From the IMG/VR virus record IMGVR_UViG_3300025669_000020, positions 41,614 to 105,613 of that record: DNA of 64,000 nt. The stretch is one strand, 5' to 3'. The notes beneath the pieces were generated by a model. That model was given only the letters and a program-made list of their open reading frames with translations. It ran no database searches and was not told where the DNA came from. Made by a program: the position numbers and the translations under genes. Below, piece by piece: positions 9,802 to 58,384 of the stretch. Source of the DNA: a virus. How positions within the stretch are numbered: the first letter of the stretch is position 1; every line of letters begins with the position of its first letter.

Positions 9802-10092
9802 ATGAGCCTTCGCAAGAACCTCATTCGCCTCGCACACACCAACCCTGAGTTGCGCCCCCAGCTGCTCCCCATTCTGAAGGGCTCCGCCTATGATGGGAAC
9901 GCTGACGGCAAGCCTATCTATGACCACGATATCGATCATGGGTACGGGCAGCCTTTGGCTGGTGGCACCGACGTGATGCGTCGTCTGCAGAACCAGTACC
10001 GGAAGGAGCAGGGTCGCCCCGAGCGCCCTGCAAACCCCGAAATCCCCAAGATGGCTTCCCGTGTTGCTCTGCGGCATCTCGACAGGAAGTAG
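9802..10092 (+). CDS. Small putative internal head protein carrying both shared tags
   Basis: MSLRKNLIRLAHTNPELRPQLLPIL ... SRVALRHL. Confidence 0.65.
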   Translation: MSLRKNLIRLAHTNPELRPQLLPILKGSAYDGNADGKPIYDHDIDHGYGQPLAGGTDVMRRLQNQYRKEQGRPERPANPEIPKMASRVALRHLDRK

Positions 10093-10101
10093 GAGAACAC
10101 C

Positions 10102-10683
10102 ATGTCCAACAACGATGAATTCTGGGACGGTCTGATTATGGCTAGTTCCGATGTGGGGATTGGGGATGTGCACCTCCCCAATCTCAGTGAGACCACCATG
10201 AAGGGGAAGGAGATGGGGAAGGGGTTCTTCGAATCCGTCCAGAGCCTAACTCAGGCGGGAGCCGCTAAGAACGCACTCCAGCTGCCCATCGCAGCTGGTA
10301 GTCGTGTGCGGTTCAAGGCCAACACGGGTTCCCTGTTGACCTACGAGAACCCCCCCGAGCCGAACGCCGAGGGTGATGTGGTGACTGTGCGTTCTGCCTC
10401 TGGCAACATCACTTCCCATGACGGGTTGGTGTTTGTCCAGTGGAAGGACAGGTTCATGCCTATTCACGCGGAGCACCTGGAGAAGGTGGCCAACCAGATG
10501 CGGCAGGGTAGCCCCCACCGTGTCCGCGTCGCCTGTCTCGGGGACCTCCAGGACTTCCTGAAGGTCAGCCAGGACACCCTGGTGCACAAGGCCACCAAGG
10601 ATCTGTGGTCGCTCCGTGCAGACGGAGAAGGCTTCGTTATCGAGCGGCTCTTCGACACGGAAGGGAACGCTCTACAGGTGTGA
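10102..10683 (+). CDS. Hypothetical virion protein
   Basis: AGGAG RBS; SH3-like segment; LVHKATKDLWSL. Confidence 0.6.
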   Translation: MSNNDEFWDGLIMASSDVGIGDVHLPNLSETTMKGKEMGKGFFESVQSLTQAGAAKNALQLPIAAGSRVRFKANTGSLLTYENPPEPNAEGDVVTVRSASGNITSHDGLVFVQWKDRFMPIHAEHLEKVANQMRQGSPHRVRVACLGDLQDFLKVSQDTLVHKATKDLWSLRADGEGFVIERLFDTEGNALQV

Positions 10684-10703
10684 GACACACGGACTGTGCG
10701 CGT

Positions 10704-10734
10704 CATTTATATGGCTATAGGCTGGCCTGGGTAG
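10704..10734 (+). promoter_or_regulatory. Putative phage late promoter motif
   Basis: CTAT-N12-GTAG before 10750; upstream box divergent. Confidence 0.55.
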
Positions 10735-10749
10735 AACAGGGAGTCGCCC

Positions 10750-11361
10750 ATGGTTGAGAAGCCCCTTGCAGCCCGTGTTGCTTCCAGGCACCTGGAAGGA
10801 CACCACAATCCGCAGACGCGGACGGCGGGTGAAGTACGCTTCATCAAGGACCGTGGTTCTGATCACAACGAGTGGGGCTGGGGAACTCCGGGCCCTTCGG
10901 AACGTGAGATCAACCATGAGTTTGTCTTCAACGCCAAGTACCTGAAGCCCCTCGCTCAGTCCCTCCGCGCTGCCCTCATGGCTCTTGGCCACACCACCAG
11001 TGCCCACACCCAGTTCGTGAAGCTCAAGAGCCGCAACGTGTCCCCTGATGGGAACCTGGGTGGCAAGGGCTACATCCAGAAGATTGCTGACATGCGCCGC
11101 CAGTTGATGAACTGCATCGAGGCGTTGTCCTCTTTCACGGATACCGTGTACGATGAGCTGGCTGCCCCTCACTGGGATCCCGCCGAAGATGTGCTCTCTC
11201 CCCGTGATCGTGATGAGGTCAAGGAAATCATCGATGATGCCGAGGAGATCAAGCTGGATCCCAAGGAATGGGCAGAGGATGAAGAGGCGGAGATGGACAG
11301 TGCCAAGGGGAACGGCGTCGGCAAAGTCGCAGCCCTCTACATGGCTCGGAGGAACGCATGA
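10750..11361 (+). CDS. Hypothetical virion protein with RVAxR tags
   Basis: ARVASRHLE at N-terminus, KVAALYM at C-terminus. Confidence 0.65.
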   Translation: MVEKPLAARVASRHLEGHHNPQTRTAGEVRFIKDRGSDHNEWGWGTPGPSEREINHEFVFNAKYLKPLAQSLRAALMALGHTTSAHTQFVKLKSRNVSPDGNLGGKGYIQKIADMRRQLMNCIEALSSFTDTVYDELAAPHWDPAEDVLSPRDRDEVKEIIDDAEEIKLDPKEWAEDEEAEMDSAKGNGVGKVAALYMARRNA

Positions 11362-14138: not shown

Positions 14139-14210
14139 GTTCCCCAAGGGCTCCCAGTTTCCTTTCAAACGCCTTGAAATTACGGGTAATTGCAGGTTTG
14201 TAAGGTTTCG

Positions 14211-14241
14211 CGGTAGAATCTCTATCTACAAAGGTAGGTGG
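14211..14241 (+). promoter_or_regulatory. Putative phage late promoter motif
   Basis: CGGT-agaatct-CTAT-N12-GTGG. Confidence 0.6.
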
Positions 14242-14252
14242 AGGCTTCCATC

Positions 14253-15137: not shown

Positions 15138-15145
15138 GAGGTTTC

Positions 15146-15799
15146 ATGCCTACCACTCAGCAGATTCTTGCTACGCTCCCCTCGGACACTACTCGTGTCC
15201 AGGTGCAGAACACTATGGGCAAGACCAAGTACAAGGCCCCTTCCGAGGTGCTGCCTTCTGATACGATCCAGTTCAACAGTGCTGGTGACCCCATTGTGAT
15301 GACTAGCCTCCCTGGTCGCCGCCCGCAGGCTGCCCCGCAGGCTATCAATACTGCCACCGCAGCGGTAGTGCAGCACAAGGAAGACAGCATGAAGAAGGAC
15401 CCCCTTCTTCGGTCTGTCACGGACGACCCACACAGTCTAGAAGTGCTGGACGGCATCATCACGGGCATCTCCGAGGAAGCTGCCTCCTTGCACTTCGAGC
15501 GTCAGGAAGCAGACCGTCGCGGGAATGAAACCAGCAAGATTTCCTTGCGGCGTGTCAATGCCCTGAAGGCAGCAGCCGACGTGTACCTGAAGCGTCGTGA
15601 ACAGCTGTCCTCCGGGGTGGTGGATCTGGATGGGCCCGCTTTCGAGAAGGTCTTCCTGTTCATCATCGAGACCATCCGTAACAGCATGACTGAGTCAGGA
15701 GTGCCCTACGAGCAGGTGGATGCTCTGTTCTCCAAGGTTGCCAAGCAGTTCGATGCAGGGTGGCAGGCGGAGGCCCGAGTCCGCATGGCTCAGAAGTAG
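15146..15799 (+). CDS. Hypothetical; terminase small-subunit candidate
   Basis: Helical, immediately upstream of TerL (positional inference). Confidence 0.45.
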   Translation: MPTTQQILATLPSDTTRVQVQNTMGKTKYKAPSEVLPSDTIQFNSAGDPIVMTSLPGRRPQAAPQAINTATAAVVQHKEDSMKKDPLLRSVTDDPHSLEVLDGIITGISEEAASLHFERQEADRRGNETSKISLRRVNALKAAADVYLKRREQLSSGVVDLDGPAFEKVFLFIIETIRNSMTESGVPYEQVDALFSKVAKQFDAGWQAEARVRMAQK

Positions 15800-15807
15800 G
15801 CTACACC

Positions 15808-18159
15808 ATGGCACTTTCTGATCTGGTTCTAGGCGCAGGGCGCATGAAAACCGGGGAGTCCCGTACTCCCACGGACATCATCACGTTTATCGAGGCCCCT
15901 TGGGGCCTCGATATGAAGCTGTACCCTGTGCAGAGGGTCATCCTCAAAGCCCACTACGGCATGGGTTTGGATGACAACCCTTTGGGGTTCCCTCTTGACG
16001 ATCCGATCCCCGAGGATCACCCGCACTACGACCCCAAGTGGTTTGACATCAATCCCCGTGCGGCACAGAACACCATCGAGATCACGAACCCGTTGACGAT
16101 CCCTGACGGGGCAGACATCACCCTGGTAGACCACACAGGTGCTGCCATCTTTTTCAGGGAGGGTGTCCACTGGTCCCGCCAGGGGTCTGTTGCTGATGTG
16201 ACAGCATCCATCATACAGACGCTGAGGGACAATGTCCCGGACACATTCACGGTAGATGATACGGATTACGGGCGTATCAAGGTGCTAAGCAAGGGGTATA
16301 GCATCGAAGGGAATGCTGCGGATATGCAGCTGACGCCTTGTGCTGGTTGGAGGGTGGGGCTCCCCGCCTTGGAGACGGATCAGGAGGGGTATGAGCAGCA
16401 CCACCACCGCTTCTTTGCGGGTGAGGGCGGCTTCTACAAGTACCGCATCCCCATCTCTGACTGGCGTCGTGAGAACGCTCGTGTGTACACGGAGGCAGGG
16501 TATCTCAAGTACCTGCATAGTGAGAATCGCTGCAACGTAGCAGAGATCATCCCGGGGCAGGAACGTCGTGAGATGGTTCTTTCCATTGGGCGTCGTTCTG
16601 GCAAGACGCTCCTGACTTCCTGCATCCTGGCCTATGAGACATACAAGCTGTTGCTCAAGGGCAACCCGCAGAAGCATTACGGCTCCAGCCAGTCCAACGT
16701 CATCCAGCTCATCAGTGTTGCTACTGACAAGGATCAGGCAGGGCTTCTCTACCAGGAGGCCGCCGGACATTTTGGAAAATGCGATTTCTTTGCAGCCTAT
16801 ATGGCGAACGCCACCCAGAGCTTCGCTACGTTCCAGACCCCTTTCGACATTGAACGCTACGGCTCCTACGCGGAGAACCAGAAGGCCCGCTACTCGGTCA
16901 AGGTCACCTTCAAGAGCTGTGTGGCCAAGGGGCTTCGCGGTGGTGCCAACATCCTGGTTGCCTTGGATGAGGTTGCTCACTTCACAGACAAGGGTCAGTC
17001 CTCCGCAGAATCTGTCTACCAGGCAGTAGAGCCCTCTACCCGAACCTTCTCTCCGAAGGACCCCAACAACGCCACCCGTTCCGTGGGCCAGAACGAGGGT
17101 CGGATCATCATGATCTCGTCCCCTCTGGGCAAGCAGGGGCTCTTCTACAAGAGCTACCAGATCGGCTACACCAGTGGTCGTGCTGCCAAGAACATGCTCT
17201 GTATCCAGGCACCAACATGGGAGGTCAACCCCACGGTGCCCGCAGGGACGTTTGAGTCTTCCTACCTCAAGGATGCCCGTGTGTTCGACACGGAGTTCGG
17301 GGCGAAGTTCACGGACAGGTCTTCAGGCTGGATCGAGGACAAGAGAGATCTCCTTGACTGTGTGACCCCATCGCTGAGACCCAAGCAGAAGGCCCGTCCT
17401 CGTGAGCCTCACTTCCTGGGACTCGATGTGGGTCTTGTAGGGGATGGTTCCGCTGTGGCTATCGGGCATGTGGATGATAATAAGAATGTCGTCCTGGATT
17501 TCATTGAACAGATCAAGGCTGGGGAAGGGCGGTTCGAGCACTTGGAGCGGTTGGAGTTCACGGATGTTGCGGACTGGGTTTATGACCTCTCCCGGAGGTT
17601 CTACATCTCGGAGGGGATCTTTGACCAGTGGGCAGGTATTCCCATGGAGCAGGCACTGGCTGCCCGCGGTCTCAAGCAGCTGAAGTCTGTGTTTTTCACG
17701 AAGCCCAAGAGCAGTGAGATATTCCAGAACTTCAAGAACATGATGTACGACAAACGGCTTTCACTGTTCAACTACCCTCTCAAAGAGGGGGAGGAACATT
17801 GTGACTACCTCAAGGAACTGCTGACCCTCCAGGCTGAATACCAGTCCAAGTACATCACGGTGGTGGCTGCTCCCAACACTCAAGGCATGCACGATGATAT
17901 GTCCGATGCCCTTGTTCGTATGGTGTGGGTTGGTTCCCAGCACATGGGCAAGATGTTGGCGGTTGGCAATTACATCGGTGGGCAAATGGGTGGGAAGGGT
18001 CCGAGGCGTAGTTCACTCACGGATCGGATGGCCACCCGGCAGAAAGCTCTTTTGGGTGGGAGCCATCCAGATCGTCAGGTGCGTCGTAGCAAGAAAAACA
18101 TCATGGGCATGCCCGTGGGTGCGACACGGGGTGTGAACCCCAGAACACGTCGGGGATAA
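15808..18159 (+). CDS. terL: Terminase large subunit
   Basis: LYPVQ Q-motif, GRRSGKT Walker A, VALDEVAHF Walker B, ISSP, nuclease LGLDVG ... HDDMSDA. Confidence 0.9.
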   Translation: MALSDLVLGAGRMKTGESRTPTDIITFIEAPWGLDMKLYPVQRVILKAHYGMGLDDNPLGFPLDDPIPEDHPHYDPKWFDINPRAAQNTIEITNPLTIPDGADITLVDHTGAAIFFREGVHWSRQGSVADVTASIIQTLRDNVPDTFTVDDTDYGRIKVLSKGYSIEGNAADMQLTPCAGWRVGLPALETDQEGYEQHHHRFFAGEGGFYKYRIPISDWRRENARVYTEAGYLKYLHSENRCNVAEIIPGQERREMVLSIGRRSGKTLLTSCILAYETYKLLLKGNPQKHYGSSQSNVIQLISVATDKDQAGLLYQEAAGHFGKCDFFAAYMANATQSFATFQTPFDIERYGSYAENQKARYSVKVTFKSCVAKGLRGGANILVALDEVAHFTDKGQSSAESVYQAVEPSTRTFSPKDPNNATRSVGQNEGRIIMISSPLGKQGLFYKSYQIGYTSGRAAKNMLCIQAPTWEVNPTVPAGTFESSYLKDARVFDTEFGAKFTDRSSGWIEDKRDLLDCVTPSLRPKQKARPREPHFLGLDVGLVGDGSAVAIGHVDDNKNVVLDFIEQIKAGEGRFEHLERLEFTDVADWVYDLSRRFYISEGIFDQWAGIPMEQALAARGLKQLKSVFFTKPKSSEIFQNFKNMMYDKRLSLFNYPLKEGEEHCDYLKELLTLQAEYQSKYITVVAAPNTQGMHDDMSDALVRMVWVGSQHMGKMLAVGNYIGGQMGGKGPRRSSLTDRMATRQKALLGGSHPDRQVRRSKKNIMGMPVGATRGVNPRTRRG

Positions 18160-18448: not shown

Positions 18449-18832
18449 ATGGCACGACTTCGCAAAGGCTCCTTGGCATCTCCCGCTGATAGGGAGATTC
18501 TGGGCCATGTGGCAGCAGCGGAGAGGGCCCTTCGCAAGGCTTTGGATGCTTGTGTCCTAGCTAAGAGGCAATCTCGGTCCCCAGGCAGCAATCTCCGTAT
18601 GGCCCGCGTGATCAGAACACAGCGGGATCTACATCGGGTGATGGCGGCTCTGTCAAATGTGCATCGCATCGTACCCCTTCATGACATGGGCGAGCAGGAT
18701 CCGGGTGAGCTGGATCGTGATCTCATGTCCCCAGAAGAGCGTGCAGCCTTTGATGCTGTGGAAGACCAGCGAGAGGACTTGTTGGCAGCAGTAGCAGAGA
18801 AGTTGACGGCAGCCTGGGAGAGTGCTGAATGA
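18449..18832 (+). CDS. Hypothetical protein
   Basis: ATGA overlap with portal. Confidence 0.5.
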   Translation: MARLRKGSLASPADREILGHVAAAERALRKALDACVLAKRQSRSPGSNLRMARVIRTQRDLHRVMAALSNVHRIVPLHDMGEQDPGELDRDLMSPEERAAFDAVEDQREDLLAAVAEKLTAAWESAE

Positions 18833-20601
18833 CCAAGAACACACTTGAGAAACCTCCGTTCCCGGAGAAGGCCCCCACTTCACAGAAGCGATTGGCCTCT
18901 ACCTCCATGTCAGAACCCCAGGAAGGTCGTGTAGTGGCCAAGGTGCGCCCGCGCCCCAAGGTCAAGACAGGAAAGCCCAAGCGGCTGGACAAGGTCGCTG
19001 CAATGCGGGTGGCCTCCTGTGGTGGCGGCGGTCTTTCAACCTCTGGCTCGGAAAGTGCCTCCTTCGGCAACTTCTACAGCCCAGAGCTGTCCACGGACTT
19101 CTTGGAGCTGGCACAGTCCAAGACTGAGCAGTGGGCCTACTACCGCTTCTTCTACAACGCCGATCCCTTTGTGGGACAAGCCATCGATCTCCATACGGAG
19201 CTGCCCCTCTCCCGTGTACGCTTGGACATCCCCGAGGCCAAGAGCCGTGAATTGGCGATGAAGTCCACCCGGTTCTGTAAGCACTGGGCGAAGGACATTC
19301 AGCTCTTGCGGAAGCTGTGGGGTGTGCTCCATGAGTATCACCTCATTGGGGTCGTCAACATCTACATCGAGGACAACAACCCGGAGATGCCGGAAGAGGT
19401 CCGAATCGAAAGGGTGCGGGAACTCCAGGAGGACGGCACCCTGGTAGAAGAGGAGCAGGAGCTGGAGGACGCTGACGAAAGGTCCGTGGCATGGCTCAAG
19501 AAGAACTACAAGGGTTGGACAGGGTTCCGTGTCATCCCCCCAGAGCAGGTGCATGTTGAGGGGTTCCCCTCCACAGATCTGAAGCTGGTGGAGATGATCC
19601 CCGATGCCAAGACCCGCAAGCTCGTCATGGCAGCAGACAGCGGGGACGCTCGTTCCGCATCCATCGTCAACACGATGGCTCCTGAGATCGTAGAAGCCGC
19701 ACGCACAGGTCAGAATGTTCCCCTGAACACCGACCCAGATGCAGGCAGCTTCGTCCATGTCCTCGAAAACAAGAAGTGCCCCTACCAGGATGGTGGGCAG
19801 TCCATCTTGGAGCGGTGTATCCGCACCCTGGTGTTCTGGGACAAGCTCCGCCAGGCCAACACCTCCATCGCTTCCCGGCACATGACCCCTATTCGGGTTG
19901 TGTACGCAGAGGACATGGACATGGCCGACGTGGAGAACCTGCGTGACCAGGTGGACATGGCCCTGCAGGATCCCGATTTCTCCATCATCGCCAACTTCCA
20001 GATCACCTGGGACGAGATGGGGTCGGATCAGCGTCTGCTAGACCTGTCCAGTGAATACGAGTTCGTGCGGCAACAGCTGTTCGCGGGTTTGGGAGTCACG
20101 GAAGGTCTGCTCACAGGTGAGTCCAGCTACTCCGGTGACCGCATCCATCTGGATGTGATCAACACTCGGTACATGCTGCTCCGTGAGGTCATTCAGGAGT
20201 TCGTGGAAGAGCAGCTCCTGAAGCCGATGTGCAGGCGCATGGGCTTTATCGAGGAGGATGAGGACGGCCGTGATGTCGTCATCTACCCGAAGTTCAGCTT
20301 CACACGGTTGGCTCTGCGGGACAACGCGGACACTTTCGATGCCATGCTCAACCTCTACCAGAAGGGGAGCCTGGACATTGATGCCATCCTGGAACTGCTG
20401 AATATCGATCCGGTGGCCACGAAGGAGAAGCTGGACAGGGACAAGTTCACCCTGAACGATGCTGCCTTCAGCGAGGTGCTTCGAGGCATCTACGGTGAGG
20501 CAGGACGTGCATTGGCGGCAGATTCCGACGTGTTGGAGATCATTGCCAAGAACCTGGGGCTGAAATATGAGAAGCCCAAGGAAGAAGGCGGAAGGTACTA
20601 G
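18829..20601 (+). CDS. Portal protein
   Basis: Position after TerL; FYNADPFVGQAIDLHTELPLS, G.SILERC.RTL, GLGVTEGLLTGE; size fits. Confidence 0.8.
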   Translation: MTKNTLEKPPFPEKAPTSQKRLASTSMSEPQEGRVVAKVRPRPKVKTGKPKRLDKVAAMRVASCGGGGLSTSGSESASFGNFYSPELSTDFLELAQSKTEQWAYYRFFYNADPFVGQAIDLHTELPLSRVRLDIPEAKSRELAMKSTRFCKHWAKDIQLLRKLWGVLHEYHLIGVVNIYIEDNNPEMPEEVRIERVRELQEDGTLVEEEQELEDADERSVAWLKKNYKGWTGFRVIPPEQVHVEGFPSTDLKLVEMIPDAKTRKLVMAADSGDARSASIVNTMAPEIVEAARTGQNVPLNTDPDAGSFVHVLENKKCPYQDGGQSILERCIRTLVFWDKLRQANTSIASRHMTPIRVVYAEDMDMADVENLRDQVDMALQDPDFSIIANFQITWDEMGSDQRLLDLSSEYEFVRQQLFAGLGVTEGLLTGESSYSGDRIHLDVINTRYMLLREVIQEFVEEQLLKPMCRRMGFIEEDEDGRDVVIYPKFSFTRLALRDNADTFDAMLNLYQKGSLDIDAILELLNIDPVATKEKLDRDKFTLNDAAFSEVLRGIYGEAGRALAADSDVLEIIAKNLGLKYEKPKEEGGRY

Positions 20602-21258: not shown

Positions 21259-21289
21259 CGGTATTTCCTCTATGGCTATGGGGGGTCAG
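21259..21289 (+). promoter_or_regulatory. Putative phage late promoter motif
   Basis: CGGT-atttcct-CTAT...GTCAG. Confidence 0.6.
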
Positions 21290-21300: not shown

Positions 21301-24300
21301 ATGCCAAAGCCACTGCCAGCACAGACGGGTTCTCTAAAAACCGCTGCCGATGTAGGGACAGACACGGCGGAGATTTATGCAATCTCCCCGGAAATGCTCT
21401 ACAGGGTTCTCCAACGCAAGACGTGGGAAGAGACTGCCCGTGGGGTGTGGGGTGACAGCGATCACGGGAACATGCCCGGCCAGTGGGAGAAGATGCAGAG
21501 GATCATCCGGGAACATGGCGGGGCAGTGTTCCAGACAGGCAGGGATGGCTATTTCGATGTGAAGGTGCATGGGGGGGTTTCCGAGGGAGGGGCTATGGCT
21601 CCCTATGGGACTCTCAGTACGGAACGTGTGGCCTCGATGCACAGGGAGGCACTACGGGCCCAGGAGATGCTCAAGTGGGTGGTGCAGCCCCTCTCCTTCC
21701 TCTCCAAGCACCACAAGGACTTCATCAACGGTCCTGTAGACGACGTGATGGATCAGGCGTTCCGCGAGATCGCCCCCCATGTGGTCAAGGCTGTGGGGGA
21801 GGCAGAGATCGATGCCGACGTGGATGAATTCCACGATGGGGCCATTCGGGGGAAGTGGGACTATGATCGTGAGCTTCTGTCAGACCCCCCTCGCAGAGAG
21901 ACCGAGGACTTCATCGAGGGGTACACTTGGGGGTTCCAGCACCCTGACATGGTGGGCACCAGGGAGCTGCCTGCTCGGGTCAAGAAGCAGGTGGTCGAGG
22001 ATGCCATCCAAGAATTCCGCCACAAGGTGACGGAGAAGGTTGTCCTGAAGGCACTCCGCTCTGTCTGGGGCAGAGTCAATCCCCTGGAGACATTCAGGAC
22101 CATCATCCGCATGACCAAGAAGCACGGGTGGAAGCTCGGCCTGTTCATCGCCAGTGTGGAGATCCTGGAAACCTTCGTGATGCCCGCCGTGCTCATTCAC
22201 ATCACGGGTAATGCAGCTCTGGCGGTTACGGGTCAACTCCCCTTGAGCGAGATCCTGTACGCCATCATTTTCCCCATCATGTTCCGAGGGAAGGCCGTGG
22301 ACACGTTCACACCTGACGGCCACCTGGACTGGTATGAAGCCTTGTATGGAATGGTGCGGGTGGCAGAGCGGACACCGCAGTCAAACAAACTTCAGGCGAC
22401 GATGGCGGTTTTTGAGGATGTTGTGGGGAACGCTGCCCGGGCTACAGGTCACCTTGGGTGGACGCGAAAAGTCCTGTCGCCAGAGCAGCAGCAGAAAATG
22501 GTGGTGGACTTGAATGGCAGTGCTAGGAACCTGCTTCCTTTGCTCACTTTCAAGTTTGAGAATCCTGCTCAAGAGGCTGGGTACAAGAAGTATCTGAACA
22601 GGATGCGGAACTACCGCAAGATGGTGAAGTCCTTCACGGTTGTGAAGGACTGGGATGACGTTGTAGCTGTGTGCGACAAAATATCTACCAAGTCCAAGGG
22701 GGTCTGGGAGAAGGTGCGGGAGTATGGCAGGGAAGTTCAGGGCGTGCTTGACACCGTGGACACGGAGGTCCAGGGCTCCTTTGCTGTGGGGAAATTCCGG
22801 GTGATCCTGATGTCCTCCGCAAATGGTGTGTGGGATAACGAGATGCTGGAGCGCACCCGGCACGTGTTGCACAAGACCTCCCAGCTTATGGGCAAACACG
22901 GCATGGGGAAGCTCGCAGCAGGCAATGTCTGGGCGTACTCGTCACCCTCCATTCCAGGCAGGAGCAGTGTCGTTGCGTGGTATCGGATGGCAGACGATGC
23001 CTTGTGCCTTGCTTGTGGGTCCGGATGGTGGATGAGGCGCAGTATGGATGACATCCTCAAGACCCTGGTGCATGAGCTGGGGCATCGGGCCTATTTCAAG
23101 ATCCTGGGTGGCAGCGGCCGTAAGGCGTGGGCTGACTTTTTCGAGCTGTCCCAGGAAGTCCCTGATGTGCAGGGTATGATCTCCCGCTGGGAGCGTTATG
23201 TGGAGGGCGCAGGCTCTGACCTGGAGGAATTCCGGCGTGGGCATCTGCAGCGGTATCTTCCCATTGTGAAGAAACGAGATGCCAAAGAGAAATACGACTC
23301 CTACCGCGGGTACCCCACCAAGACATCGATTTCGGGTCTGCAAGCCCTGAAGGACAAGGCCAACAGCATCAAGGTGTTCATGCACCCCGTGACGGTCTAC
23401 TCTGCCTCCAACGAGGCAGAGCTGTTTGCTGAGGTGTTCTCCCATTACATCGTATATGGGCCACAGGCCATTGCACCCGTGGTGCAAGATCAATTCAAGA
23501 GGGCACTCCCCATGGCACGACTAGGCAAAGAAAAAATCCCCGGTGGCCTCTCGGAAGGCAAGGACACCAGCGACCTCGATCCCAAAGAGATGGCGATGGG
23601 GGTCAAGGTTGAAATGGAGCATACTGGAGATCCCGCCCTGGCAAAAGAGATCGCTTCTGATCACCTTGTGGAAATCTCCGACTACTACACTCGTCTGAAG
23701 AAGATGGAGGCTGAAGCCGAGAAGCCTGGCAAGAAGGCCGCTGCCCAGAATGGCAAGAGCACCGGCAACCGCAAGTCCGTGGGCTTCTTCATCCCTCTCC
23801 CCAAGGAGCTGGCGGCGCAGTATCCGAGCAGGGCTCCTGTGGACAAATCCGCACCCCATGTGACCTTGCTCTATGTGGGTGAAGTGACTGCAGCACGGGA
23901 GAAGGAATTCCTGGCTGTGGTGACCAAGGTGATGGCTTCGGAGCCTGGCCCCATCAAGGCTGCCATCGGAGGGGTGGACTACTTCCGGCAGCCTGACAAG
24001 GACCAGTCGGTAGCCATCCAGACGATCAAGTTCTCTCGGGACGTGGGCGAGATGAAGAAGCGTCTGAGGGGTGCCTTGGAGGATGCGGACTTCGTGGTGG
24101 AGGACTCGTTCCCCGGTGCCTACAGGAGCCACACGACCCTGGCCTACCTGGACGGTACGGACTCCGTGTATGAGGGGCCTGTGCCTGTGGGTTCCTGGGA
24201 GTTCGACAGTGTCCCTGTGTGGGGGTTGCCCTCCAACCATGACATTCCCCTGGGGGAGTGGACGCAAGAGGCCCCTGTCAACCGCACGGCTGCTCTGGTT

Positions 24301-24336: not shown

Positions 24337-24339
24337 TAG

Positions 24340-26983
24340 ATGCATCCCAACCACTACAGAGTCGCCCAGATGCACCTGGAAGCTACCAGCCACAAGAAGT
24401 CCATCGTCCTCATGACGTTCCTGGCAGACCTTGCCCGGAGCCTCGGGGTCGGTCGGCATGTCTACGTCGTGGGTGGGGCAGTGCGGAATTTCGTGATCGA
24501 TGAGCCCATCAAGGACATCGATGTGGTCATCGACTCCCTGGCTCTCGGGGGAGGCAGGGACTCCGAGTGGTTCGCCAAGAAGGTCGTCAAGGCCATCCCC
24601 GTTCCCGTCAACATGGAGACCAACCAGTACGGTGTGGCCCTCCTCCATGTGAAGGGGGACTGGATTCTGGATGGGGACAACCTCAAGGGTGAGGACATCG
24701 AGATCGCCAACGCCCGCAAAGAGTCCTACGGCGGGGCCGAAGGGAAGGGCTACCGAGCCCCACATGGTAGAGCCCGCGACCATCGAGGAAGATGTGGTTC
24801 GAAGGGAATTCACCTTCAATTGTGTTGCGGGGGACACCCTTATCCCCACTGCGCAGGGCATTCTCCGAATCGATCAAATTGCTTCCCGTGAGGTTGGGGA
24901 TCAACAGGACATTCAAATCATGGTGGCAGGGCAGGAGGGTCCTGCTGAAGCTGTGGGGTGGCAGTACAGTGGGTTTGCTCCTACCTTGAGGGTAACAACG
25001 GGGTGGGGTCACACCCTCTCCTGTACGCATCACCATCCATTTCTGGTCCTTCGGGGGCATGGCCATGAGTGGATACAGGCGGATCAGCTTGATGAGGGGG
25101 ATCTGCTTTGTGTGCCTGTGCAGCAAATGATCCGTAGTACCTCATTGATCCTGGGGTTACCTGATCCTCCGAAACCCCGGACAGGTAAACTCAAGGAGGG
25201 GGTGGTAAAACCTGATGTGATGACACCTGAGCTGGCATTCGTGATCGGGTGTGTGGTGGCCGAAGGATCAAACACCCCTACTCGGGTCTCTTTCAGCAAT
25301 TCAGACCCCGCTTTCATTTCCCGGTATATCGAGTGCTTCAACGCTGTGTTCGGGTTCGTGCCCTCACGGAACAAGGTGGTTGAGAAGGGTTCTGTCCGTA
25401 CCCTGCGAGGTGTGGATTTTGTCGCCACTGCTGATGGTTACGACATCCTCGCTAACAGCAAGGCTGTGGTAGGATGGCTGCAAGACCTCGGCCTTTATTG
25501 CGGGGGATCCAAGGGGGGGAAATCTGCATCCCACCACAAGGTTGTGCCGTGGTCTATCCTCCAAGCCGACGAACAGAGCCAACGAGCGTTCCTTGCAGCT
25601 TATCTGGAGGGGGATGGGTGTCTCCACCACACGGGTCGCATCACATACTGTTCGGCATCTCATCAGGTGCGACAGCAGTTGCAGGTGCTTCTGGGCTCCC
25701 ACGGCATCTTGTCCAAGGTTAAGGACAGGTTCGTGTACATCAATGCTGTGGATTCCTCGCGGCTATGGGAGAAGATTCATCCGTGGATGGTCACCAAGAA
25801 ATTCGACTACACAGGCCGCGTGTTCAAGAGCCGCAACCGTTATGGCATTCCAGTGGACTACATTGCAGGGTTCCTCTCGGGCCGTAGACAGGCATCAGCG
25901 GGTAAGGCAGGGGTCGCCTACACAACAGATTCCGGGGATGCACAACCCCTTCGTGGGATGCACGACCCTGTCCGGTTAGTTCGCCGTCTTCTCCATGACG
26001 CATATGCTCGCGGGGATTTCAACGATTTCCTGGATGGTCTTAGGGTCATTAGTCCCAAGGAACACCTCAATCTCCAACGGTTGTTTGATCTCAGCTACCA
26101 ATATGTAGAGGTCACCTCTGTAGAAGATGCGGGCAAACAGGATGTATTCGACATCTCGATGGAAGAGGGGATGGAACCTGCATTTGTGGCGAATGGGGTG
26201 GTAGTACACAACACCCTCATGTGGCGGCTGCACGACCTGGCCCGAGGGCCGGACAAGGCAGAGATCATTGACCTCACCGGGTGCGGTCTGCGGGATTTGA
26301 AGAACCGCGAGCTGCGGTGCCCCTCGGACCCCGACAAGACCTTCTCGGATGACCCGACACGGCTGCTCCGTGTGGTCAAGTTCACCACGAAGTACGGGAT
26401 CAAGATTCCTGCTGACGTGAAGGCTTCCATCAAGCGGAATGCCCCCAAGCTGCGGAAGGCACCTCACAGTGCCCTGTCCAACCTGCTGATCAACACCGTG
26501 CTGGTGGAGCCATACGCCAAAAAGGCTCTCCATCAGATGAAGGACTTGGGTCTGCTGGACGTGCTGGCAGACATGGTGCGAGAGGTGAAGCCTTTCAGGG
26601 AGGCACTGCAGAGCTGGGTGTCCAACCAGCGGGTGCTCCTGATGTTCGACATCATGGACGTGGGGCTTCCCATGAACACCCCCATCGGGTGGCTGGACAA
26701 GGACCAGCAGAAGCGTCTGCGGGAGATCGCCCTTGGGATGGAGCCTGGTGAGGCCACGAAGTTCCTGGCTGTTTTGAAGCAGACTGGAAAGCTCTGGGGG
26801 GACAAGACCTTCTTCCACACCCTGGCTCAAGAGATGGGTGTAGAGCGGACTGGGATGGCAGTGTTCGGCAAGGCTCTTCAGGAAGTCGCCCGTGACATCA
26901 TTCTGTTTGACCCGACTCTGGCGTGGAAGCCCAAGGATATGCGGCAGTGGGCCCGTGAGCGGATGCGGGAAAAGCGGTTCTAG
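24340..26983 (+). CDS. cca: CCA-adding/poly(A) polymerase-family nucleotidyltransferase with intein; one extra base near 24754 joins two frames
   Basis: VGGAVRN..KDIDVV, ARKESY, then EEDVVRREFTFN, IIDLTG.GL.DL, TFSDDPTRLLR. Confidence 0.85.
24821..26212 (+). mobile_element. Intein (464 aa) with LAGLIDADG homing endonuclease
   Basis: Starts CVAGDT, block B TxxHPF, FVIGCVVAEGS and FLAAYLEGDG, ends FVANGVVVHN followed by Thr. Confidence 0.92.
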
Positions 26984-27076
26984 GTCCCCCGCCGAACAAA
27001 TTGTGTTTTCGTGGGTGGGCTTCTGGCTGTCCGAGCGTAGTAGGTTTGTGCGTCTACCTACCACGGAGTGACCTTC

Positions 27077-27982: not shown

Positions 27983-28007
27983 CCTGTCTATACCTCCGGG
28001 TGTGTGA
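27977..28007 (+). promoter_or_regulatory. Putative phage late promoter motif
   Basis: CGCT-agcctgt-CTAT-N12-GTGA. Confidence 0.55.
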
Positions 28008-28022
28008 CACCTGGAGTAGTTG

Positions 28023-32892: not shown

Positions 32893-32905
32893 TCACCGCT
32901 GGTAG
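32874..32905 (+). promoter_or_regulatory. Putative phage late promoter motif
   Basis: CGGT-aatccct-CTAT-N13-GTAG. Confidence 0.6.
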
Positions 32906-40395: not shown

Positions 40396-41573
40396 TGAGC
40401 ACGCGTAACCGCATGACGTGGGACGGTGAGGAAAAGCGCGCCTCCCTCCCGGTCGAAGAAGCCGACAAGAGGGCATCCGCCCCCCCCGCCGTCCCCATGG
40501 ACCCTGACCACCCCGCCGCCAAGCCCGACCCCGATGAGCATCACTACGAGAATGGTGACACCTCCTCATGGGCCGAAGACCCGACGACTGGTCCCTACCC
40601 CAACAGCGAGGCCCCCGCGGTTCCCACCGATACGGGCCACCCCGCTGCCAAGCAGGCTGCTGACATTCGTGTCGCCGCTGAGAAGAAGGCTGCCAAGTGC
40701 ATCCGCATCGCGCAGACCCTTCTCGTTGGCTTGGATGTCCCCACCATCGAAGACCAGGCCCTTGAGCTGATGGATCTCCCCGATGTCTCCCTGGACGCTA
40801 CCCTCCGCCGGATGGAAGCTGCCCATGAGGACGAGGAAGTCCTGCTCCGCAAGATGCTGGCTGGTGATGAGGATGAGGAAGAGGAAGAGGGCAAGGAAGC
40901 CACCGATGTGGAAGCAGCCGATGAGTCCGACAAGGACGCCTCGACTGACCGCATGGCCGAAGTCCTGACCGCTCTCCGCGACCTCCAGGGTCAGCTCGAC
41001 ACCCTCCGCAACCCCGTGGTCGCTGGCGAAGACGCCGATGACGATGAGGATGAGGATGGGGACAAGGCTGCCGAAGTCGTGGAAGAGGACGAAGAGGAAG
41101 TCCTCTTGGCCCAGATGTTGGCGGAGCTGGACTCCGGCTGCGAAGGCTGCAACGAGAACGCCATGGAAGAGGAAATGGTCGAAGAGGTGGCAGAGGTCGC
41201 CCCCGAAGCCATGATGGACATCGTGGATGATGAGATGATCATCGAAGACGATCCCATGATGGACGCCGAGACTGACATCAGCCTGGAAATGATGGATGAC
41301 CCCATGGGTCTGGGCGGCACCAACGACATCCTCCCCGAGGACGAGATGGCACTGGCCAATCTGTTCCACCAGGCAGACGACAAGGTCGCTGGCGAAGAGG
41401 CCAAGGACGACAAGGACGACAAGGAAGCTGCCGAGCGTCCCCAGCCCAAGAAGGCAGGCACTGGCCCCAAGACTCTGGGCAACCAGACCATGACCAAGAG
41501 CGCCTCCAACGAGATGAACGAACTCGGCAAGCTCTGGGAGACCGCTCCCGACGTGACCAAGTTCTTCGAGTAG
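40395..41573 (+). CDS. Capsid scaffolding protein
   Basis: Highly acidic, between protease and capsid genes, many K-x-A sites. Confidence 0.65.
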   Translation: MSTRNRMTWDGEEKRASLPVEEADKRASAPPAVPMDPDHPAAKPDPDEHHYENGDTSSWAEDPTTGPYPNSEAPAVPTDTGHPAAKQAADIRVAAEKKAAKCIRIAQTLLVGLDVPTIEDQALELMDLPDVSLDATLRRMEAAHEDEEVLLRKMLAGDEDEEEEEGKEATDVEAADESDKDASTDRMAEVLTALRDLQGQLDTLRNPVVAGEDADDDEDEDGDKAAEVVEEDEEEVLLAQMLAELDSGCEGCNENAMEEEMVEEVAEVAPEAMMDIVDDEMIIEDDPMMDAETDISLEMMDDPMGLGGTNDILPEDEMALANLFHQADDKVAGEEAKDDKDDKEAAERPQPKKAGTGPKTLGNQTMTKSASNEMNELGKLWETAPDVTKFFE

Positions 41574-42473: not shown

Positions 42474-43349
42474 ATGAGCAACGTATCCAACGCTGCAAAG
42501 CAGCAGATCATCTCCGAGTTCATCAAGACCCCCCAGGGTCGCGCTAAGCTCGCAGCCTCGATGACCCAGCCTCTGCGCCTCCGCCGGGACTACACCGCAG
42601 TCGGTCGTAAGACCTTCCTCGTGGAACAGCTCCCTGACGGCGCACTGCCCATCTACGACAAGGACCCCGATGTGACGGCATACGTCGTTGGTGAAGAAGG
42701 CGAGAACATCCTCGCAGTCACCAAGCCTCGCCGTGTCATCTTCCCCCTCTTCGAGATCGCATCCAACCCCGAGATCCCGCTCACGCAGATCAAGGAACGT
42801 CGGTTCGACCTCATCGAGCGCGCCCAGGACTTGGCCCGTGCCCAGATCCAGGCAGCAGAAGACGAGCGTGTCTTCGCAGTGCTCGACAGCATCGCCACCA
42901 ACGGCTTCGACTCCGTGGCTGGCGGCACCAACCCTGACATCCCCGTGGTCGCTCCGATCTCTGGTGCTGTCCTGGCTGATGCCTTCGCACTGATCGAGCG
43001 TCATGACCTTCATGTCGCTCGCGTGTTCATGAACGCTCGGGACTACGCGGACCTCCGCAAGTTCGGTCGCGACATCCTGGACATCGAATCCCAGCGCGAT
43101 TTGTTGAAGACCGGCCTGATGGCAACCCTCTGGGGAGCACAGATCATCGTCAGCCGCCTCGTGCCTGTCGGAACGGTCTATGTGTGTTGCGAACCGGAAA
43201 TGTTCGGCCGCATCCCCGTTCGCATTGAGCTGACAGTTCTCAGCGCAGACGACCCGAAGGCTCGCACCATCGGCTTCTCCTGCTTCGAGAACCTCGGTAT
43301 CGGCGCGTTCAACCCCCGTGGTCTGACCCGTCTGACGATCACCCGTTAG
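42474..43349 (+). CDS. Major capsid protein (HK97 fold)
   Basis: Position; LPIYDKD, FEIASNPEI, RRFDLIERAQ..A.IQAAED, LWGAQIIVS..VP.GTVY. Confidence 0.85.
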   Translation: MSNVSNAAKQQIISEFIKTPQGRAKLAASMTQPLRLRRDYTAVGRKTFLVEQLPDGALPIYDKDPDVTAYVVGEEGENILAVTKPRRVIFPLFEIASNPEIPLTQIKERRFDLIERAQDLARAQIQAAEDERVFAVLDSIATNGFDSVAGGTNPDIPVVAPISGAVLADAFALIERHDLHVARVFMNARDYADLRKFGRDILDIESQRDLLKTGLMATLWGAQIIVSRLVPVGTVYVCCEPEMFGRIPVRIELTVLSADDPKARTIGFSCFENLGIGAFNPRGLTRLTITR

Positions 43350-52954: not shown

Positions 52955-53329
52955 GTGAGTGCAGAAAAAAACGCCAACAGCCAGGCAACTTGGGCTCTCC
53001 TCACGGAGAGCGTCTCGTCAGCACGGCTGAATGCTTACCGTCTAAGTCACCTTGTACAAAGGGCTCTCGCCTTGGTGGAGAAGTCCACCCACAAGGACCA
53101 TCTGTACCAGGTCGCGGGGGATGTCATCCAAGGGCTTCCAGAGCGCCTGGAGCGCCTGGAAGGGGACTTGGATAGGACTTCCTATACATTGTCCCGCCTT
53201 GCAGAGGATTCCTTGAGGGACCGCCTGCCTCTCGCAGACCGTGCCTTGGTGGATGAAGCCCTGCACAAGCCCAAGACGGCTTCTGCATCTCGGGTGGGTG
53301 CTCGCTTCTTGCAGAAGTTGGAGAGCTGA
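52955..53329 (+). CDS. Helical virion protein with C-terminal RVGARFL tag
   Basis: KTASASRVGARFLQK. Confidence 0.6.
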   Translation: MSAEKNANSQATWALLTESVSSARLNAYRLSHLVQRALALVEKSTHKDHLYQVAGDVIQGLPERLERLEGDLDRTSYTLSRLAEDSLRDRLPLADRALVDEALHKPKTASASRVGARFLQKLES

Positions 53330-57276: not shown

Positions 57277-57349
57277 TAGACCCCCTCCAGGTTCCTGGTA
57301 GGGGCCACACGGTCCCTGCCAGGATGCCTTGGCTCTATATGGAGTTGAT

Positions 57350-57604
57350 ATGAACAGAAGCAAAACCACACCCGTGACAGGTGACTACCGCACTTCCGAT
57401 CTCTACTACGCGGCCTATCTGCGGGTGGCGGGAGTGCCTTTCCAGGAATCTCAGAGGGAAGGCAAACGTGTCTTCTTTGTCTTCGAGAACTCGGAAAGCA
57501 TCCGTGATTTGAAGAATCAGTACTTCAACAGAACCGCAAAGGTGCCTGCCATGACCTATGCGGACGAAATCAAAGCCATGAAGGCTCTGACACACATGCT
57601 GTAG
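57350..57604 (+). CDS. DUF5659-like small protein
   Basis: TSDLYYAAYL...RVFFVF motif. Confidence 0.55.
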   Translation: MNRSKTTPVTGDYRTSDLYYAAYLRVAGVPFQESQREGKRVFFVFENSESIRDLKNQYFNRTAKVPAMTYADEIKAMKALTHML

Positions 57605-57629
57605 TTGCAGAAGTCCCAGGAGTGCCCCG

Positions 57630-57977
57630 ATGATGTACCCTCTCTACCTCCTGGCAGCTTTTGGACTCTGTTTTGGGTTCATGAACAAGGCCACACCCCT
57701 GTACGGGAAGATCGACTTCTTCGACAGGATGTGGGAGTGCTCCTACTGCACAGGCTTCCACTGCGGGTGGTTGATGTGGGTTCTCGCCTTCATACTGGAA
57801 GGCAAGCCACCTATGGGAGACTTCGGAAGTGCCCTGGGTGTTGTCCAGGTCGTAGGCTCCATCCCCCTGTGGGCGTTCGCCTCTTCGGCGTTCTGCTACA
57901 CGCTGGATATCACGACGAAACTCATGGAGTCCCACATACAGGTTCCCAACTATGATGAGGAGGAGGACTCCGAATGA
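57630..57977 (+). CDS. Small membrane protein (DUF1360-like, holin candidate)
   Basis: Hydrophobic helices with CSYCTGFHCGW. Confidence 0.5.
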   Translation: MMYPLYLLAAFGLCFGFMNKATPLYGKIDFFDRMWECSYCTGFHCGWLMWVLAFILEGKPPMGDFGSALGVVQVVGSIPLWAFASSAFCYTLDITTKLMESHIQVPNYDEEEDSE

Positions 57978-58207
57978 ACCCCAAGCTTCTCGAAAGTCAG
58001 GAGGATGGCGTCTTCGCCAACACTTTCCGCATCCAGCGGGACATCAACGGTGATTATCTGTTGGACTTCTGCAGGCTCTCAGCAGAGAAGGACTGTGCAA
58101 AGGTCGTGGCCAGGATTCGTATTCGGGGAAAGCTCCTGGTGGACATCCTGCAGCGCATCATTGCGATAGCCCGTGAAACCCTCCTACCCCAGGAGGAGGA
58201 GAACTGA
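57974..58207 (+). CDS. Small protein, paralog of 51383..51664
   Basis: FANTFRI...LLDFC...AKVVARIRI. Confidence 0.6.
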   Translation: MNPKLLESQEDGVFANTFRIQRDINGDYLLDFCRLSAEKDCAKVVARIRIRGKLLVDILQRIIAIARETLLPQEEEN

Positions 58208-58210
58208 ATC

Positions 58211-58384
58211 ATGTGTAATTGTCGTGGTGCTAATCGTGCACGGACATCGCCCGCTACCCAGAAGCCACGTAAGGCCCGCAGTGGCCCCGTGAGCACAAAG
58301 CCCAGCCCTACGCGGGTGGCAAGCCGGGCTACATCCAAGATGCCTACACCGACCCGCAAGAGCCCCAGGCGGAAGCTACGATAG
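58211..58384 (+). CDS. 57-aa basic micro-protein (MCNCRG...), not in ORF track
   Basis: GGAGGAG RBS; R/K/S/T/P-rich; contains RVASR. Confidence 0.5.
   Translation: MCNCRGANRARTSPATQKPRKARSGPVSTKPSPTRVASRATSKMPTPTRKSPRRKLR

What the first reader, a model, noticed from the sequence alone, without database searches (positions are those of the whole stretch)
9802..58384. Shared [RK]VAxR[FYWH]L peptide tag on many unrelated proteins: candidate capsid-loading zip code
Seen: the same short amphipathic motif recurs at termini or domain junctions of non-homologous ORFs. Examples: RVALRHL (~10060), RVASRHLE (~10774), KVAALYM (~11323), RVASMHREA (~21625), RVAQMHLEA (~24358), RVASRHVA (~29259), RVAGRFLEA (~30404), RVASRFISKHA (31094), KVAARWLEA (~32930), KVAHRFM (~34850), RVATRLADRFL (~35594), RVARAFV (~38525), RVGARFL (~53291), RVASRYA (~54646), RVASLHL (~55309), RVASRA (~58313). 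I did not see it in the replication genes, terminase or MCP. Established: T4 internal proteins use a short capsid-targeting sequence that the prohead protease removes. Inference: a portable docking helix lets this phage load many different enzymes (even a CCA-adding enzyme) into the head for injection with the DNA.
Basis: partly seen in the sequence, partly recalled or inferred. Interest (0 to 1): 0.9.

Follow-up and report, generated by a model that had tools for sequence, protein, structure and literature searches.

The report
Shared peptide tag on phage-head cargo
A huge uncultured phage and its relatives put the same seven-residue helical peptide on the ends and module joints of about a dozen unrelated enzymes encoded among the head genes; it is most likely an address label for loading them into the capsid, but no loading or cutting has been measured.

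Summary
The core R/K-V-A-x-R-[YFWH]-L occurs 9-10 times in the coding frames of this 105.6-kb contig. Residue shuffles give 0.04-0.08, and the minus-strand frames give none. Its synonymous codons vary freely, so the peptide is selected, not a DNA repeat.

The tag recurs throughout a clade of 290-436-kb uncultured phages: 13 hits against 0.27 expected in a complete 436-kb relative. It is absent from the more distant cultured jumbo phage Tunturi_5. About half of 73 distinct copies lie within a few residues of a protein's start or stop. The rest lie at module joints of giant multi-enzyme "polyvalent" proteins. The same module is fused behind an internal tag in one phage and is a separate gene starting with the tag in another.

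Tagged genes sit between the portal and prohead-protease genes, or in operons behind the promoter-like motif that also heads the terminase-portal operon. Replication genes, terminase, portal, protease and major capsid protein lack the tag.

The capsid-loading reading is the best fit but rests on context only. The reader of the tag, any cleavage and virion presence are all unknown. This scan has reported the same tag before on related phage DNA.

The parts
10060..10080 (+). Tag core, C-terminal (3 residues before the stop) of the 96-aa ORF 9802-10092
   Evidence: 18.4 bits
10774..10794 (+). Tag core, N-terminal (residue 9) of the 203-aa helical protein 10750-11361
   Evidence: 19.9 bits. AF2 predicts helix 6-16 at low pLDDT. 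About 10 of 17 orthologs keep an N-terminal tag.
11323..11343 (+). Weak C-terminal tag of the same 203-aa protein
   Evidence: 8.3 bits. 12 of 17 orthologs carry a clearer C-terminal tag at this place. AF2 predicts helix 191-202.
21625..21645 (+). Internal tag (aa 109) of the 1011-aa protein 21301-24336 (DUF5661 plus 2H cyclic phosphodiesterase)
24358..24378 (+). N-terminal tag of the CCA-adding enzyme gene, which starts at 24340
   Evidence: In G001 the same tag is internal, at the 2H|CCA joint (aa 269) of one 2494-aa ORF.
29259..29279 (+). Internal tag (aa 414) of the 604-aa protein 28020-29834, just before a MoCF/CinA-like module
   Evidence: In L042 the downstream module is a separate gene that begins with the tag.
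30404..30424 (+). N-terminal tag of the 669-aa GNAT / C45 Ntn-hydrolase / GNAT protein 30386-32395
31094..31114 (+). Internal tag (aa 237) between the first GNAT and the Ntn-hydrolase module. It ends 5 residues before the candidate nucleophile Cys.
32930..32950 (+). N-terminal tag of the 1467-aa polyvalent protein 32915-37318
34850..34870 (+). Internal tag (aa 646), before the second zincin (H-E-x-x-H) module
35594..35626 (+). Internal tag (aa 894, an extended variant), directly before the topoisomerase IB module (aa 936-1138)
   Evidence: G001 has a tag at the equivalent joint, aa 1437.
38525..38545 (+). Tag in the linker of the 193-aa protein 38207-38788 (small beta-barrel, linker, tag, zinc ribbon), encoded just upstream of the protease
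   Evidence: AF2 predicts helix 102-111 in a low-pLDDT linker.
53291..53311 (+). C-terminal tag of the 124-aa ORF 52955-53329
   Evidence: 19.7 bits
54646..54666 (+). Weak internal tag (aa 440) of the 669-aa SWIM protein 53329-55338
   Evidence: 7.7 bits
55309..55329 (+). C-terminal tag (2 residues before the stop) of the SWIM protein
   Evidence: The G001 ortholog also ends in a tag.
58313..58330 (+). It has no aromatic residue and lies in a 58-codon frame between genes.
7894..7914 (+). Degenerate N-proximal tag in ORF 7759-8154. The G001 ortholog has a clear N-terminal tag.
15760..18159 (+). Terminase large subunit (untagged)
18829..20601 (+). Portal protein (untagged). The polyvalent cassette begins about 700 bases downstream.
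38788..40395 (+). Prohead maturation protease. The catalytic part is about residues 93-351. A clade-specific C-terminal extension ends in a basic amphipathic helix.
40365..41573 (+). Very acidic 402-aa protein, a scaffold candidate and possible docking partner
   Evidence: composition only
42474..43349 (+). Major capsid protein, 291 aa, 90% identical to that of G001 (untagged)
21259..21273 (+). One of 7 promoter-like CGGT-N7-CTAT sites, all on the + strand. The others are at 7789, 14211, 32874, 52900, 55790 and 56680. They head the tagged-gene operons and the terminase-portal operon.

Best explanation
The tag is a short linear motif: a basic amphipathic helix with extended consensus [RK]-[PA]-[SM]-A-[ST]-R-V-A-x-R-[YFWH]-L. 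In a helix, Val, Ala, the aromatic residue and Leu fall on one face, and the two Arg flank it. Flexible linkers tether it to either end of a protein or between the modules of polyvalent proteins.

Proposed mechanism (inferred, not shown):
1. Tagged proteins are made late, together with the head proteins.
2. The helix docks on a conserved site of the assembling prohead. Candidates are the very acidic scaffold-like proteins, the inner face of the highly conserved major capsid protein, or the protease's clade-specific C-terminal domain.
3. The cargo is thereby trapped inside the head.
4. The prohead protease and/or the zincin peptidases embedded in the polyproteins may then separate the modules.
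5. The cargo leaves with the DNA at the next infection. It includes a 2H cyclic phosphodiesterase, a CCA-adding enzyme with an HD partner, topoisomerase IB, acetyltransferases, an Ntn hydrolase, zincin peptidases and a SWIM protein.

Shown here: the motif exists, is enriched, is conserved across the clade, is selected at peptide level, can occupy any position, lies at module boundaries, is predicted helical and lies in a head-gene context.

Inferred: docking, packaging, cleavage and ejection.
For: Enrichment and selection:
- 9-10 copies against 0.04-0.08 expected, none on the minus strand.
- Synonymous codons are scrambled.
- A complete 436-kb relative has 13 against 0.27 expected. Tunturi_5 has none.

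Position:
- Of 73 distinct tags, 20 are N-terminal, 19 are C-terminal and 34 are internal.
- In G001 the internal tags lie exactly at the joints 2H|CCA, before topoisomerase IB and after GNAT.
- The same modules are split in this window, with the tag at the new N-terminus.

Ortholog families:
- Both keep the tag while the linkers diverge, and the tag is gained, lost or left as the very C-terminus.
- Among 150 diverse representatives of the 203-aa family, tags occur in 13% of C-terminal and 12% of N-terminal windows, against 0.3% of interior windows.

Structure: AF2 places the tags as isolated helices in low-confidence linkers.

Genomic context:
- The gene order is terminase, portal, tagged polyvalent cassette, protease, acidic proteins, capsid protein.
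- In 32 related loci, 20 tags fall in the 6 kb after the portal gene, 10 in the block upstream of terminase and none in terminase, portal or the protease region.
- The promoter-like motif is shared with the terminase-portal operon.

Literature: polyvalent proteins next to portal genes are predicted virion cargo (PMC5512222). T4 offers a precedent for a shared capsid-targeting peptide (PMC3012670, PMC7411985).
Against: - There is no direct evidence of virion presence. No cultured relative carries the tag.
- In G001 several tagged genes lie far from the head module, at 61-85, 154, 180, 242, 252-255 and 269 kb.
- No consistent cleavage motif accompanies the tag. [KR]-x-A-S is enriched twofold, but equally so in tag-less Tunturi_5.
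- The late character of the promoter-like motif is inferred only from the genes it precedes.
Confidence: 0.55

Rival explanations
1. The tag is only a processing signal. It is the recognition or cleavage site at which the prohead protease, or the zincin metallopeptidase modules embedded in the polyvalent proteins, cut polyproteins into modules. It has no targeting role.
For: - Tags lie at module joints.
- The 1467-aa protein carries two H-E-x-x-H zincin motifs.
- Iyer et al. proposed such peptidases process polyvalent proteins.
- The R-V-A core fits a [KR]-x-A pattern that also recurs at the protease N-terminus and in the acidic scaffold candidate.
- Small residues Ser/Ala precede the core.
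Against: - About half the tags lie 1-8 residues from a start or 2-8 residues from a stop. Cutting there would remove almost nothing.
- Small single-domain proteins carry tags at both ends.
- [KR]-x-A-S enrichment is not specific to tag-bearing phages.
- The flanks beyond about 6 residues are not conserved.
Confidence: 0.2
2. The tag docks the proteins on a hub other than the capsid, such as RNA polymerase, a nucleic-acid repair or replication platform, or a phage-made compartment. It acts during infection, as PIP-box or clamp-binding peptides do.
For: - The tag is a position-independent short helical motif, typical of hub docking.
- Many tagged proteins act on nucleic acids: topoisomerase IB, CCA-adding enzyme, 2H and HAD RNA-repair domains.
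- One doubly tagged protein gives a weak sigma-70/HTH match.
- Tagged genes are scattered in G001.
Against: - The family-A DNA polymerase of G001 has no tag at either end. The clamp, clamp loader and primase here have none either.
- The densest tagging is between the portal and protease genes, in units co-oriented with the capsid genes.
- The tagged set also includes acetyltransferases, an Ntn hydrolase, zinc ribbons and helical proteins with no obvious common cytoplasmic platform.
Confidence: 0.15
3. The tag has no reader. It is a linker cassette or recombination scar that travels with shuffled modules, or simply a helix that terminates domains.
For: Modules are clearly shuffled, fused and split between relatives, always at the tag.
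Against: - Conservation is at peptide level with free codon choice, so it is not a DNA recombination site.
- The tag persists at the free ends of orthologs whose adjacent linkers are unalignable.
- Five of seven core positions are strongly constrained across a clade whose orthologous proteins are mostly 40-65% identical.
Confidence: 0.05

Closest known systems
Capsid targeting sequence (CTS) of phage T4 internal proteins IPI-III and Alt
   Same: A short peptide is shared by otherwise unrelated accessory proteins made with the head proteins. In T4 it binds the scaffolding core, loads the proteins into the prohead, and they are ejected with the DNA (PMC3012670, PMC7411985).
   Different: The T4 CTS is strictly N-terminal and is removed by gp21 after a Glu. 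This tag has a different sequence and is equally N-terminal, C-terminal or internal. It occurs several times per polyprotein and has no consistent cleavage residue. Packaging is untested.
Phage-type polyvalent proteins (Iyer, Burroughs, Anand, de Souza, Aravind 2017, PMC5512222)
   Same: These are giant multi-enzyme proteins encoded beside portal and terminase genes, with zincin peptidase, GNAT, Pol-beta nucleotidyltransferase and 2H domains. They are predicted to be packaged and injected.
   Different: The passages of that paper returned by keyword searches (including 'motif', 'cleavage', 'processing' and 'linker') mention no shared short peptide that delimits modules and also tags separately encoded small proteins. 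The tag ties the giant proteins and about ten small proteins into one set.
Propeptides of ejection proteins and the protease C-terminal propeptide in giant phages SPN3US and phiKZ
   Same: Many head-internal proteins are processed by a prohead protease. The propeptides, and the protease's own C-terminal tail, are proposed to target proteins into the prohead (PMC7411985). Here too the protease has a long C-terminal extension ending in a basic amphipathic helix.
   Different: Those propeptides are long (about 64-130 residues) and are not one common short motif. Their cleavage motif is T4-like, after Glu. No sequence relation to this tag was seen.
Encapsulin cargo-loading peptides
   Same: A short terminal peptide on unrelated cargo enzymes docks on the inner face of an HK97-fold shell protein (own knowledge, not tested here).
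   Different: Encapsulins are not viruses, their peptide consensus is unrelated, and internal multi-copy use at domain joints is not their usual form.

Membership tests
T4-type capsid targeting sequence system | One short peptide shared by non-homologous accessory proteins encoded with or near head genes | tested here: met
T4-type capsid targeting sequence system | The peptide is N-terminal on every cargo protein | tested here: not met
   20 N-terminal, 19 C-terminal and 34 internal among 73 tags
T4-type capsid targeting sequence system | The peptide is removed by the prohead protease at a fixed motif (after Glu in T4) | tested here: inconclusive
   Glu follows the core in only 16% of tags. 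[KR]-x-A-S enrichment is not specific. No proteomic data exist.
T4-type capsid targeting sequence system | Tagged proteins are present in proheads or virions and are ejected | not testable with these tools
   No cultured tag-bearing relative exists.
Phage-type polyvalent proteins | Two or more unrelated effector or enzyme domains in one polypeptide | tested here: met
   DUF5661+2H; GNAT+C45 Ntn hydrolase+GNAT; two zincin motifs+topoisomerase IB
Phage-type polyvalent proteins | Encoded in the portal / terminase / head-gene neighbourhood | tested here: met
   The cassette 21301-37318 lies between the portal (18829-20601) and the protease (38788-40395).
Phage-type polyvalent proteins | Zincin-like metallopeptidase module present | tested here: inconclusive
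   Two H-E-x-x-H motifs were read in the 1467-aa protein and one in G001. No profile match was obtained.
Sliding-clamp / PIP-type docking peptide | Present on the replicative DNA polymerase and other replisome clients | tested here: not met
   The G001 family-A polymerase has no tag at either end. The replication genes of the window are untagged.
Twin-arginine (Tat) signal peptide | N-terminal consecutive Arg-Arg followed by a hydrophobic stretch | tested here: not met
   The Arg residues are four apart, no hydrophobic stretch follows, and many copies are C-terminal or internal.
DNA-level repeat or recombination site | Conservation of the nucleotide sequence itself | tested here: not met
   Four Arg and two Lys codons at the first position, four Val codons and four Ala codons (one copy has Gly) are used interchangeably.

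The most novel reading that the evidence does not exclude
A position-independent, seven-residue 'load me' helix is read by a conserved site inside the prohead of a whole clade of huge phages. Any protein, or each module of a polyprotein, could then be packed and injected simply by adding the tag at either end. On this reading the phage ships a ready-made kit with its DNA: RNA repair enzymes, topoisomerase and acetyltransferases, and perhaps a sigma-like factor.
Probability: 0.5. Interest if true: 0.8.

Novelty: new variant of a known kind. Interest (0 to 1): 0.68.

Why it matters
How giant phages choose which of their hundreds of proteins go into the capsid is largely unknown outside T4.

A single short tag that works at either end or between modules would give a sequence-level rule. 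That rule would predict the injected proteome of a large uncultured phage clade from metagenomes alone. It would also explain how polyvalent proteins are built and shuffled.

In practice it could offer a portable handle for packing foreign proteins into phage heads. Because the tag defines a concrete candidate cargo list, the idea that RNA-repair and DNA-topology enzymes are delivered with the genome can be tested directly.

Tried and rejected
- DNA repeat or recombination site: rejected, because codons vary freely.
- Chance: rejected by shuffles and by the empty minus-strand frames.
- Clamp-binding peptide: rejected, because the polymerase and replisome genes lack it.
- Tat signal: does not fit.
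- A fixed cleavage motif next to the tag:
  - 'L-E-A' after N-terminal tags is not general.
  - [KR]-x-A-S is enriched (41 against 20), but 7 of the 41 are the tag core itself, and tag-less Tunturi_5 shows a similar excess.
  - K-T-A-G-E-V-R-F is private to the 203-aa family.
- Identifying the unknown tagged or neighbouring proteins led nowhere:
  - PDB sequence search.
  - ESM Atlas.
  - Foldseek on two AF2 models, which returned only generic helical-bundle and KOW/Tudor-like barrel matches.
- Searching for a cultured relative with a virion proteome: only an unannotated metagenomic record and the tag-less Tunturi_5 turned up.
- Similarity between the protease's C-terminal helix and the tag: suggestive by eye, clearest in the L051 lineage, but not detected by the tag HMM.
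Full report
**What the DNA is.**
- The window is the last 64 kb of a 105.6-kb IMG/VR viral contig judged 23% complete.
- Its portal protein has 58 relatives in IMG/VR contigs of up to 436 kb.
- Among deposited phages, only an unannotated 485-kb metagenomic record is close. The cultured Acidobacteria jumbo phage Tunturi_5 is next, at 38% portal identity, followed distantly by Bacillus phage G.
- The window therefore belongs to a clade of huge, uncultured phages.
- Gene order on the + strand:
  - replication genes: clamp, clamp loader and primase (0.5-6.7 kb), then a sigma factor (6885-7787);
  - a block of unknowns (7.8-14.1 kb);
  - terminase (15760-18159) and portal (18829-20601);
  - a 16-kb cassette of multi-enzyme proteins (21301-37318);
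  - a 246-aa acidic protein and a 193-aa protein;
  - the prohead protease (38788-40395);
  - a 402-aa very acidic protein and a 254-aa protein;
  - a 291-aa HK97-type major capsid protein (42474-43349).

**The observation.**
- The strict pattern [RK]-V-A-x-[RM]-[FYWH]-[LMIV] occurs 10 times in the three + frames and never in the three - frames. In called genes it occurs 8 times, against a mean of 0.04 in 500 residue shuffles.
- An independent gene set gives 9 against 0.08.
- An HMM built from 16 copies separates them (10.5-19.6 bits) from everything else on the coding strand (5.9 bits or less). The one exception is a minus-strand hit at 9.3 bits upstream of the window, listed under things noticed in passing.
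- Three listed copies are weak or doubtful: 11323, 54646 and 58313. The last lies in a 58-codon frame between genes and lacks the aromatic residue.
- Further copies exist upstream of the window, and weak ones at 7894 and 27095.
- Codon usage at the conserved positions is scrambled. The first position uses four Arg and two Lys codons, and four Val and four Ala codons are used interchangeably. Selection therefore acts on the peptide.

**Conservation.**
- The tag recurs in most portal-linked loci.
- A complete 436-kb relative with terminal repeats (G001) has 13 strict copies against 0.27 expected, all on its coding strand.
- Tunturi_5 has 0 against 0.16 expected.
- From 58 distinct tags the extended consensus is [RK]-[PA]-[SM]-A-[ST]-R-V-A-x-R-[YFWH]-L-(polar)-(basic). 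Nothing is conserved further out.
- On a helix, Val, Ala, the aromatic residue and Leu form one face and the two Arg flank it.

**Position.**
- Of 73 distinct tags, 20 start within a few residues of a start codon, 19 end 2-8 residues before a stop, and 34 are internal.
- The internal ones lie at module joints. In G001 one 2494-aa ORF carries tags at four places:
  - aa 269, between the 2H phosphodiesterase and the CCA-adding enzyme;
  - aa 934;
  - aa 1437, just before topoisomerase IB;
  - aa 1910, after a GNAT domain.
- In this window the same modules are separate genes or differently fused, and the tag sits at the new N-terminus (24358) or at the equivalent joint (35594).
- A module that follows an internal tag here (29259) is a separate gene in L042 that begins with the tag.

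**Two ortholog families studied in detail.**
- The 203-aa protein (10750-11361):
  - It has a conserved helical core flanked by unalignable linkers. 12 of 17 orthologs have a C-terminal tag and about 10 of 17 an N-terminal tag.
  - AF2 (pLDDT 73) models both tags as isolated low-confidence helices.
  - A profile search of 1.84 billion representatives finds 389 members.
  - Among the best 150, a relaxed tag occurs in 13% of the last 20 residues and 12% of the first 32. It occurs in 0.3% of interior windows.
- The 193-aa protein before the protease:
  - It is built of a beta-barrel, a linker, the tag and a zinc ribbon.
  - In relatives it is either free or is the last module of the giant protein.
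  - The tag can be missing, or can be the very C-terminus with the zinc ribbon lost.
  - AF2 again shows a short helix in a disordered linker.
- This is the behaviour of a self-contained short linear motif.

**Who carries it.**
- Tagged here:
  - a 2H cyclic phosphodiesterase protein;
  - the CCA-adding enzyme;
  - a CinA/MoCF-like module;
  - a GNAT / C45 Ntn-hydrolase / GNAT protein;
  - a 1467-aa protein with two zincin H-E-x-x-H motifs and topoisomerase IB;
  - a SWIM protein;
  - several small unknowns.
- The CCA enzyme's HD-domain partner gene (27068-27982) has only a very weak N-terminal copy (1.4 bits).
- In G001, separately encoded proteins also carry the tag: a second topoisomerase IB, an RNA-repair HAD domain, a 2H/CPD-like protein and the SWIM ortholog.
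- Untagged: clamp, clamp loader, primase, the sigma factor at 6885-7787, terminase, portal, protease, capsid protein and G001's DNA polymerase.

**Context.**
- In 32 loci with full flanks, 20 tags fall in the 6 kb after the portal gene and 10 in the block upstream of terminase. None fall in terminase, portal or the protease region.
- A promoter-like motif, CGGT-N7-CTAT, occurs 7 times in the window, all on the + strand, against 0.76 expected.
- It heads the units that start at 7.8, 21.3, 32.9 and 52.9 kb, all of which contain tagged genes. It also heads the terminase-portal unit at 14.2 kb.
- In G001 it lies directly upstream of several tagged genes.
- The 1467-aa polyvalent gene, the protease, the acidic proteins and the capsid gene are co-oriented with only short gaps. 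The enzymes are therefore probably made with the head.

**Mechanism.**
- The most economical reading is a docking helix that loads cargo into the prohead. It is analogous to the T4 capsid targeting sequence (PMC3012670, PMC7411985). It also agrees with the prediction that polyvalent proteins next to portal genes are packaged (PMC5512222).
- Terminal tags only 2-8 residues from a chain end argue that the tag must be bound rather than merely cut.
- Candidate readers are clade-specific or highly conserved head components:
  - the acidic 246-aa and 402-aa proteins;
  - the capsid protein, which is 90% identical between this phage and G001 while the portal is 61% and the protease 44%;
  - the protease C-terminal extension. 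Tunturi_5 lacks it, and it ends in a basic amphipathic helix.
- None of these could be tested.
- Cleavage remains open. The zincin modules and the prohead protease are both candidate agents, but I found no specific cut-site signature.

**Rivals.** Three alternatives remain and are weighed separately: a pure processing site, a non-capsid hub, and a readerless linker. All are less consistent with terminal placement, with the untagged replisome and with peptide-level constraint.

**Earlier notes.**
- Notes of this scan on the same genome pointed to the upstream copies, the promoter-like motif and the Ntn-hydrolase junction. I re-derived the first two.
- Notes on other genomes report the same R-V-A-x-R-aromatic tag in related huge phages. 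Those are AI notes and count as leads, not evidence.
- I found no description of the tag in the papers I could search.

**Verdict.** The tag is a real, clade-wide and apparently undescribed peptide tag. Capsid loading is the best-supported explanation, at about 0.55, but it is untested.

Noticed in passing
window 24671-26983 (residues 51-514 of that ORF): The CCA-adding enzyme gene carries an in-frame intein of about 463 aa with a LAGLIDADG domain (Pfam Intein_splicing and LAGLIDADG_3). G001 has the uninterrupted extein junction.
   Followed up: yes
window about 24745: The N-terminal part of the CCA-adding enzyme (ORF 24340-24891) continues in another frame (ORF 24671-26983). Both pieces align to one continuous ORF in G001. 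The cause could be an assembly indel, a frameshift or a broken gene.
   Followed up: partly
window 7789, 14211, 21259, 32874, 52900, 55790, 56680 (+ strand): The promoter-like motif CGGT-N7-CTAT occurs 7 times against 0.76 expected, all on the + strand. It lies ahead of the tagged-gene units and the terminase-portal unit. It also lies directly upstream of several tagged genes in G001.
   Followed up: partly
window 42474-43349: The major capsid protein is 90% identical to that of G001. The portal is 61% and the protease 44%. This is unusually strong constraint and makes the capsid protein a candidate reader of the tag.
   Followed up: no
window 43545-46551: A LAGLIDADG homing endonuclease (+ strand) and a 620-aa transposase-like gene (phrog_506, - strand) lie directly after the capsid gene. 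In G001 the genes flanking this stretch are adjacent across the record's ends.
   Followed up: partly
window 32915-37318, residues about 322 and about 814: Two H-E-x-x-H zincin-type motifs lie in the 1467-aa polyvalent protein. No profile hit was obtained. They are candidate self-processing peptidases.
   Followed up: partly
G000:C1:23171-24100 (upstream of the window; L100:8171-9100): A 309-aa protein with tags at both ends gives weak NCBIfam matches to ECF sigma-70 and an HTH family (E about 1e-5, below the cut-off) and no Pfam hit. It may be a packaged sigma-like factor.
   Followed up: partly
G000:C1:31633-31926, minus strand (upstream of the window): A high-scoring tag-like peptide lies near the end of a 98-codon frame antisense to the 834-aa helicase/exonuclease gene. 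It scores 9.3 bits on the seed HMM and 17.6 bits on the iterated one. It is either chance or a small overlapping gene.
   Followed up: no
window 38788-40395, residues 1-45; window 40365-41573, residues 20-40: [KR]-x-A-S motifs cluster at the protease N-terminus and in the acidic scaffold candidate. This resembles Ala|Ser sites of assemblin-type proteases, but the genome-wide excess is not specific to this clade.
   Followed up: partly
L051 (and L045), 11889-16504: In this more distant lineage (portal 50% identical) the tags appear as an R-[VI]-A-x-[RL]-L variant without the aromatic residue. The protease itself ends in a near-identical peptide.
   Followed up: partly
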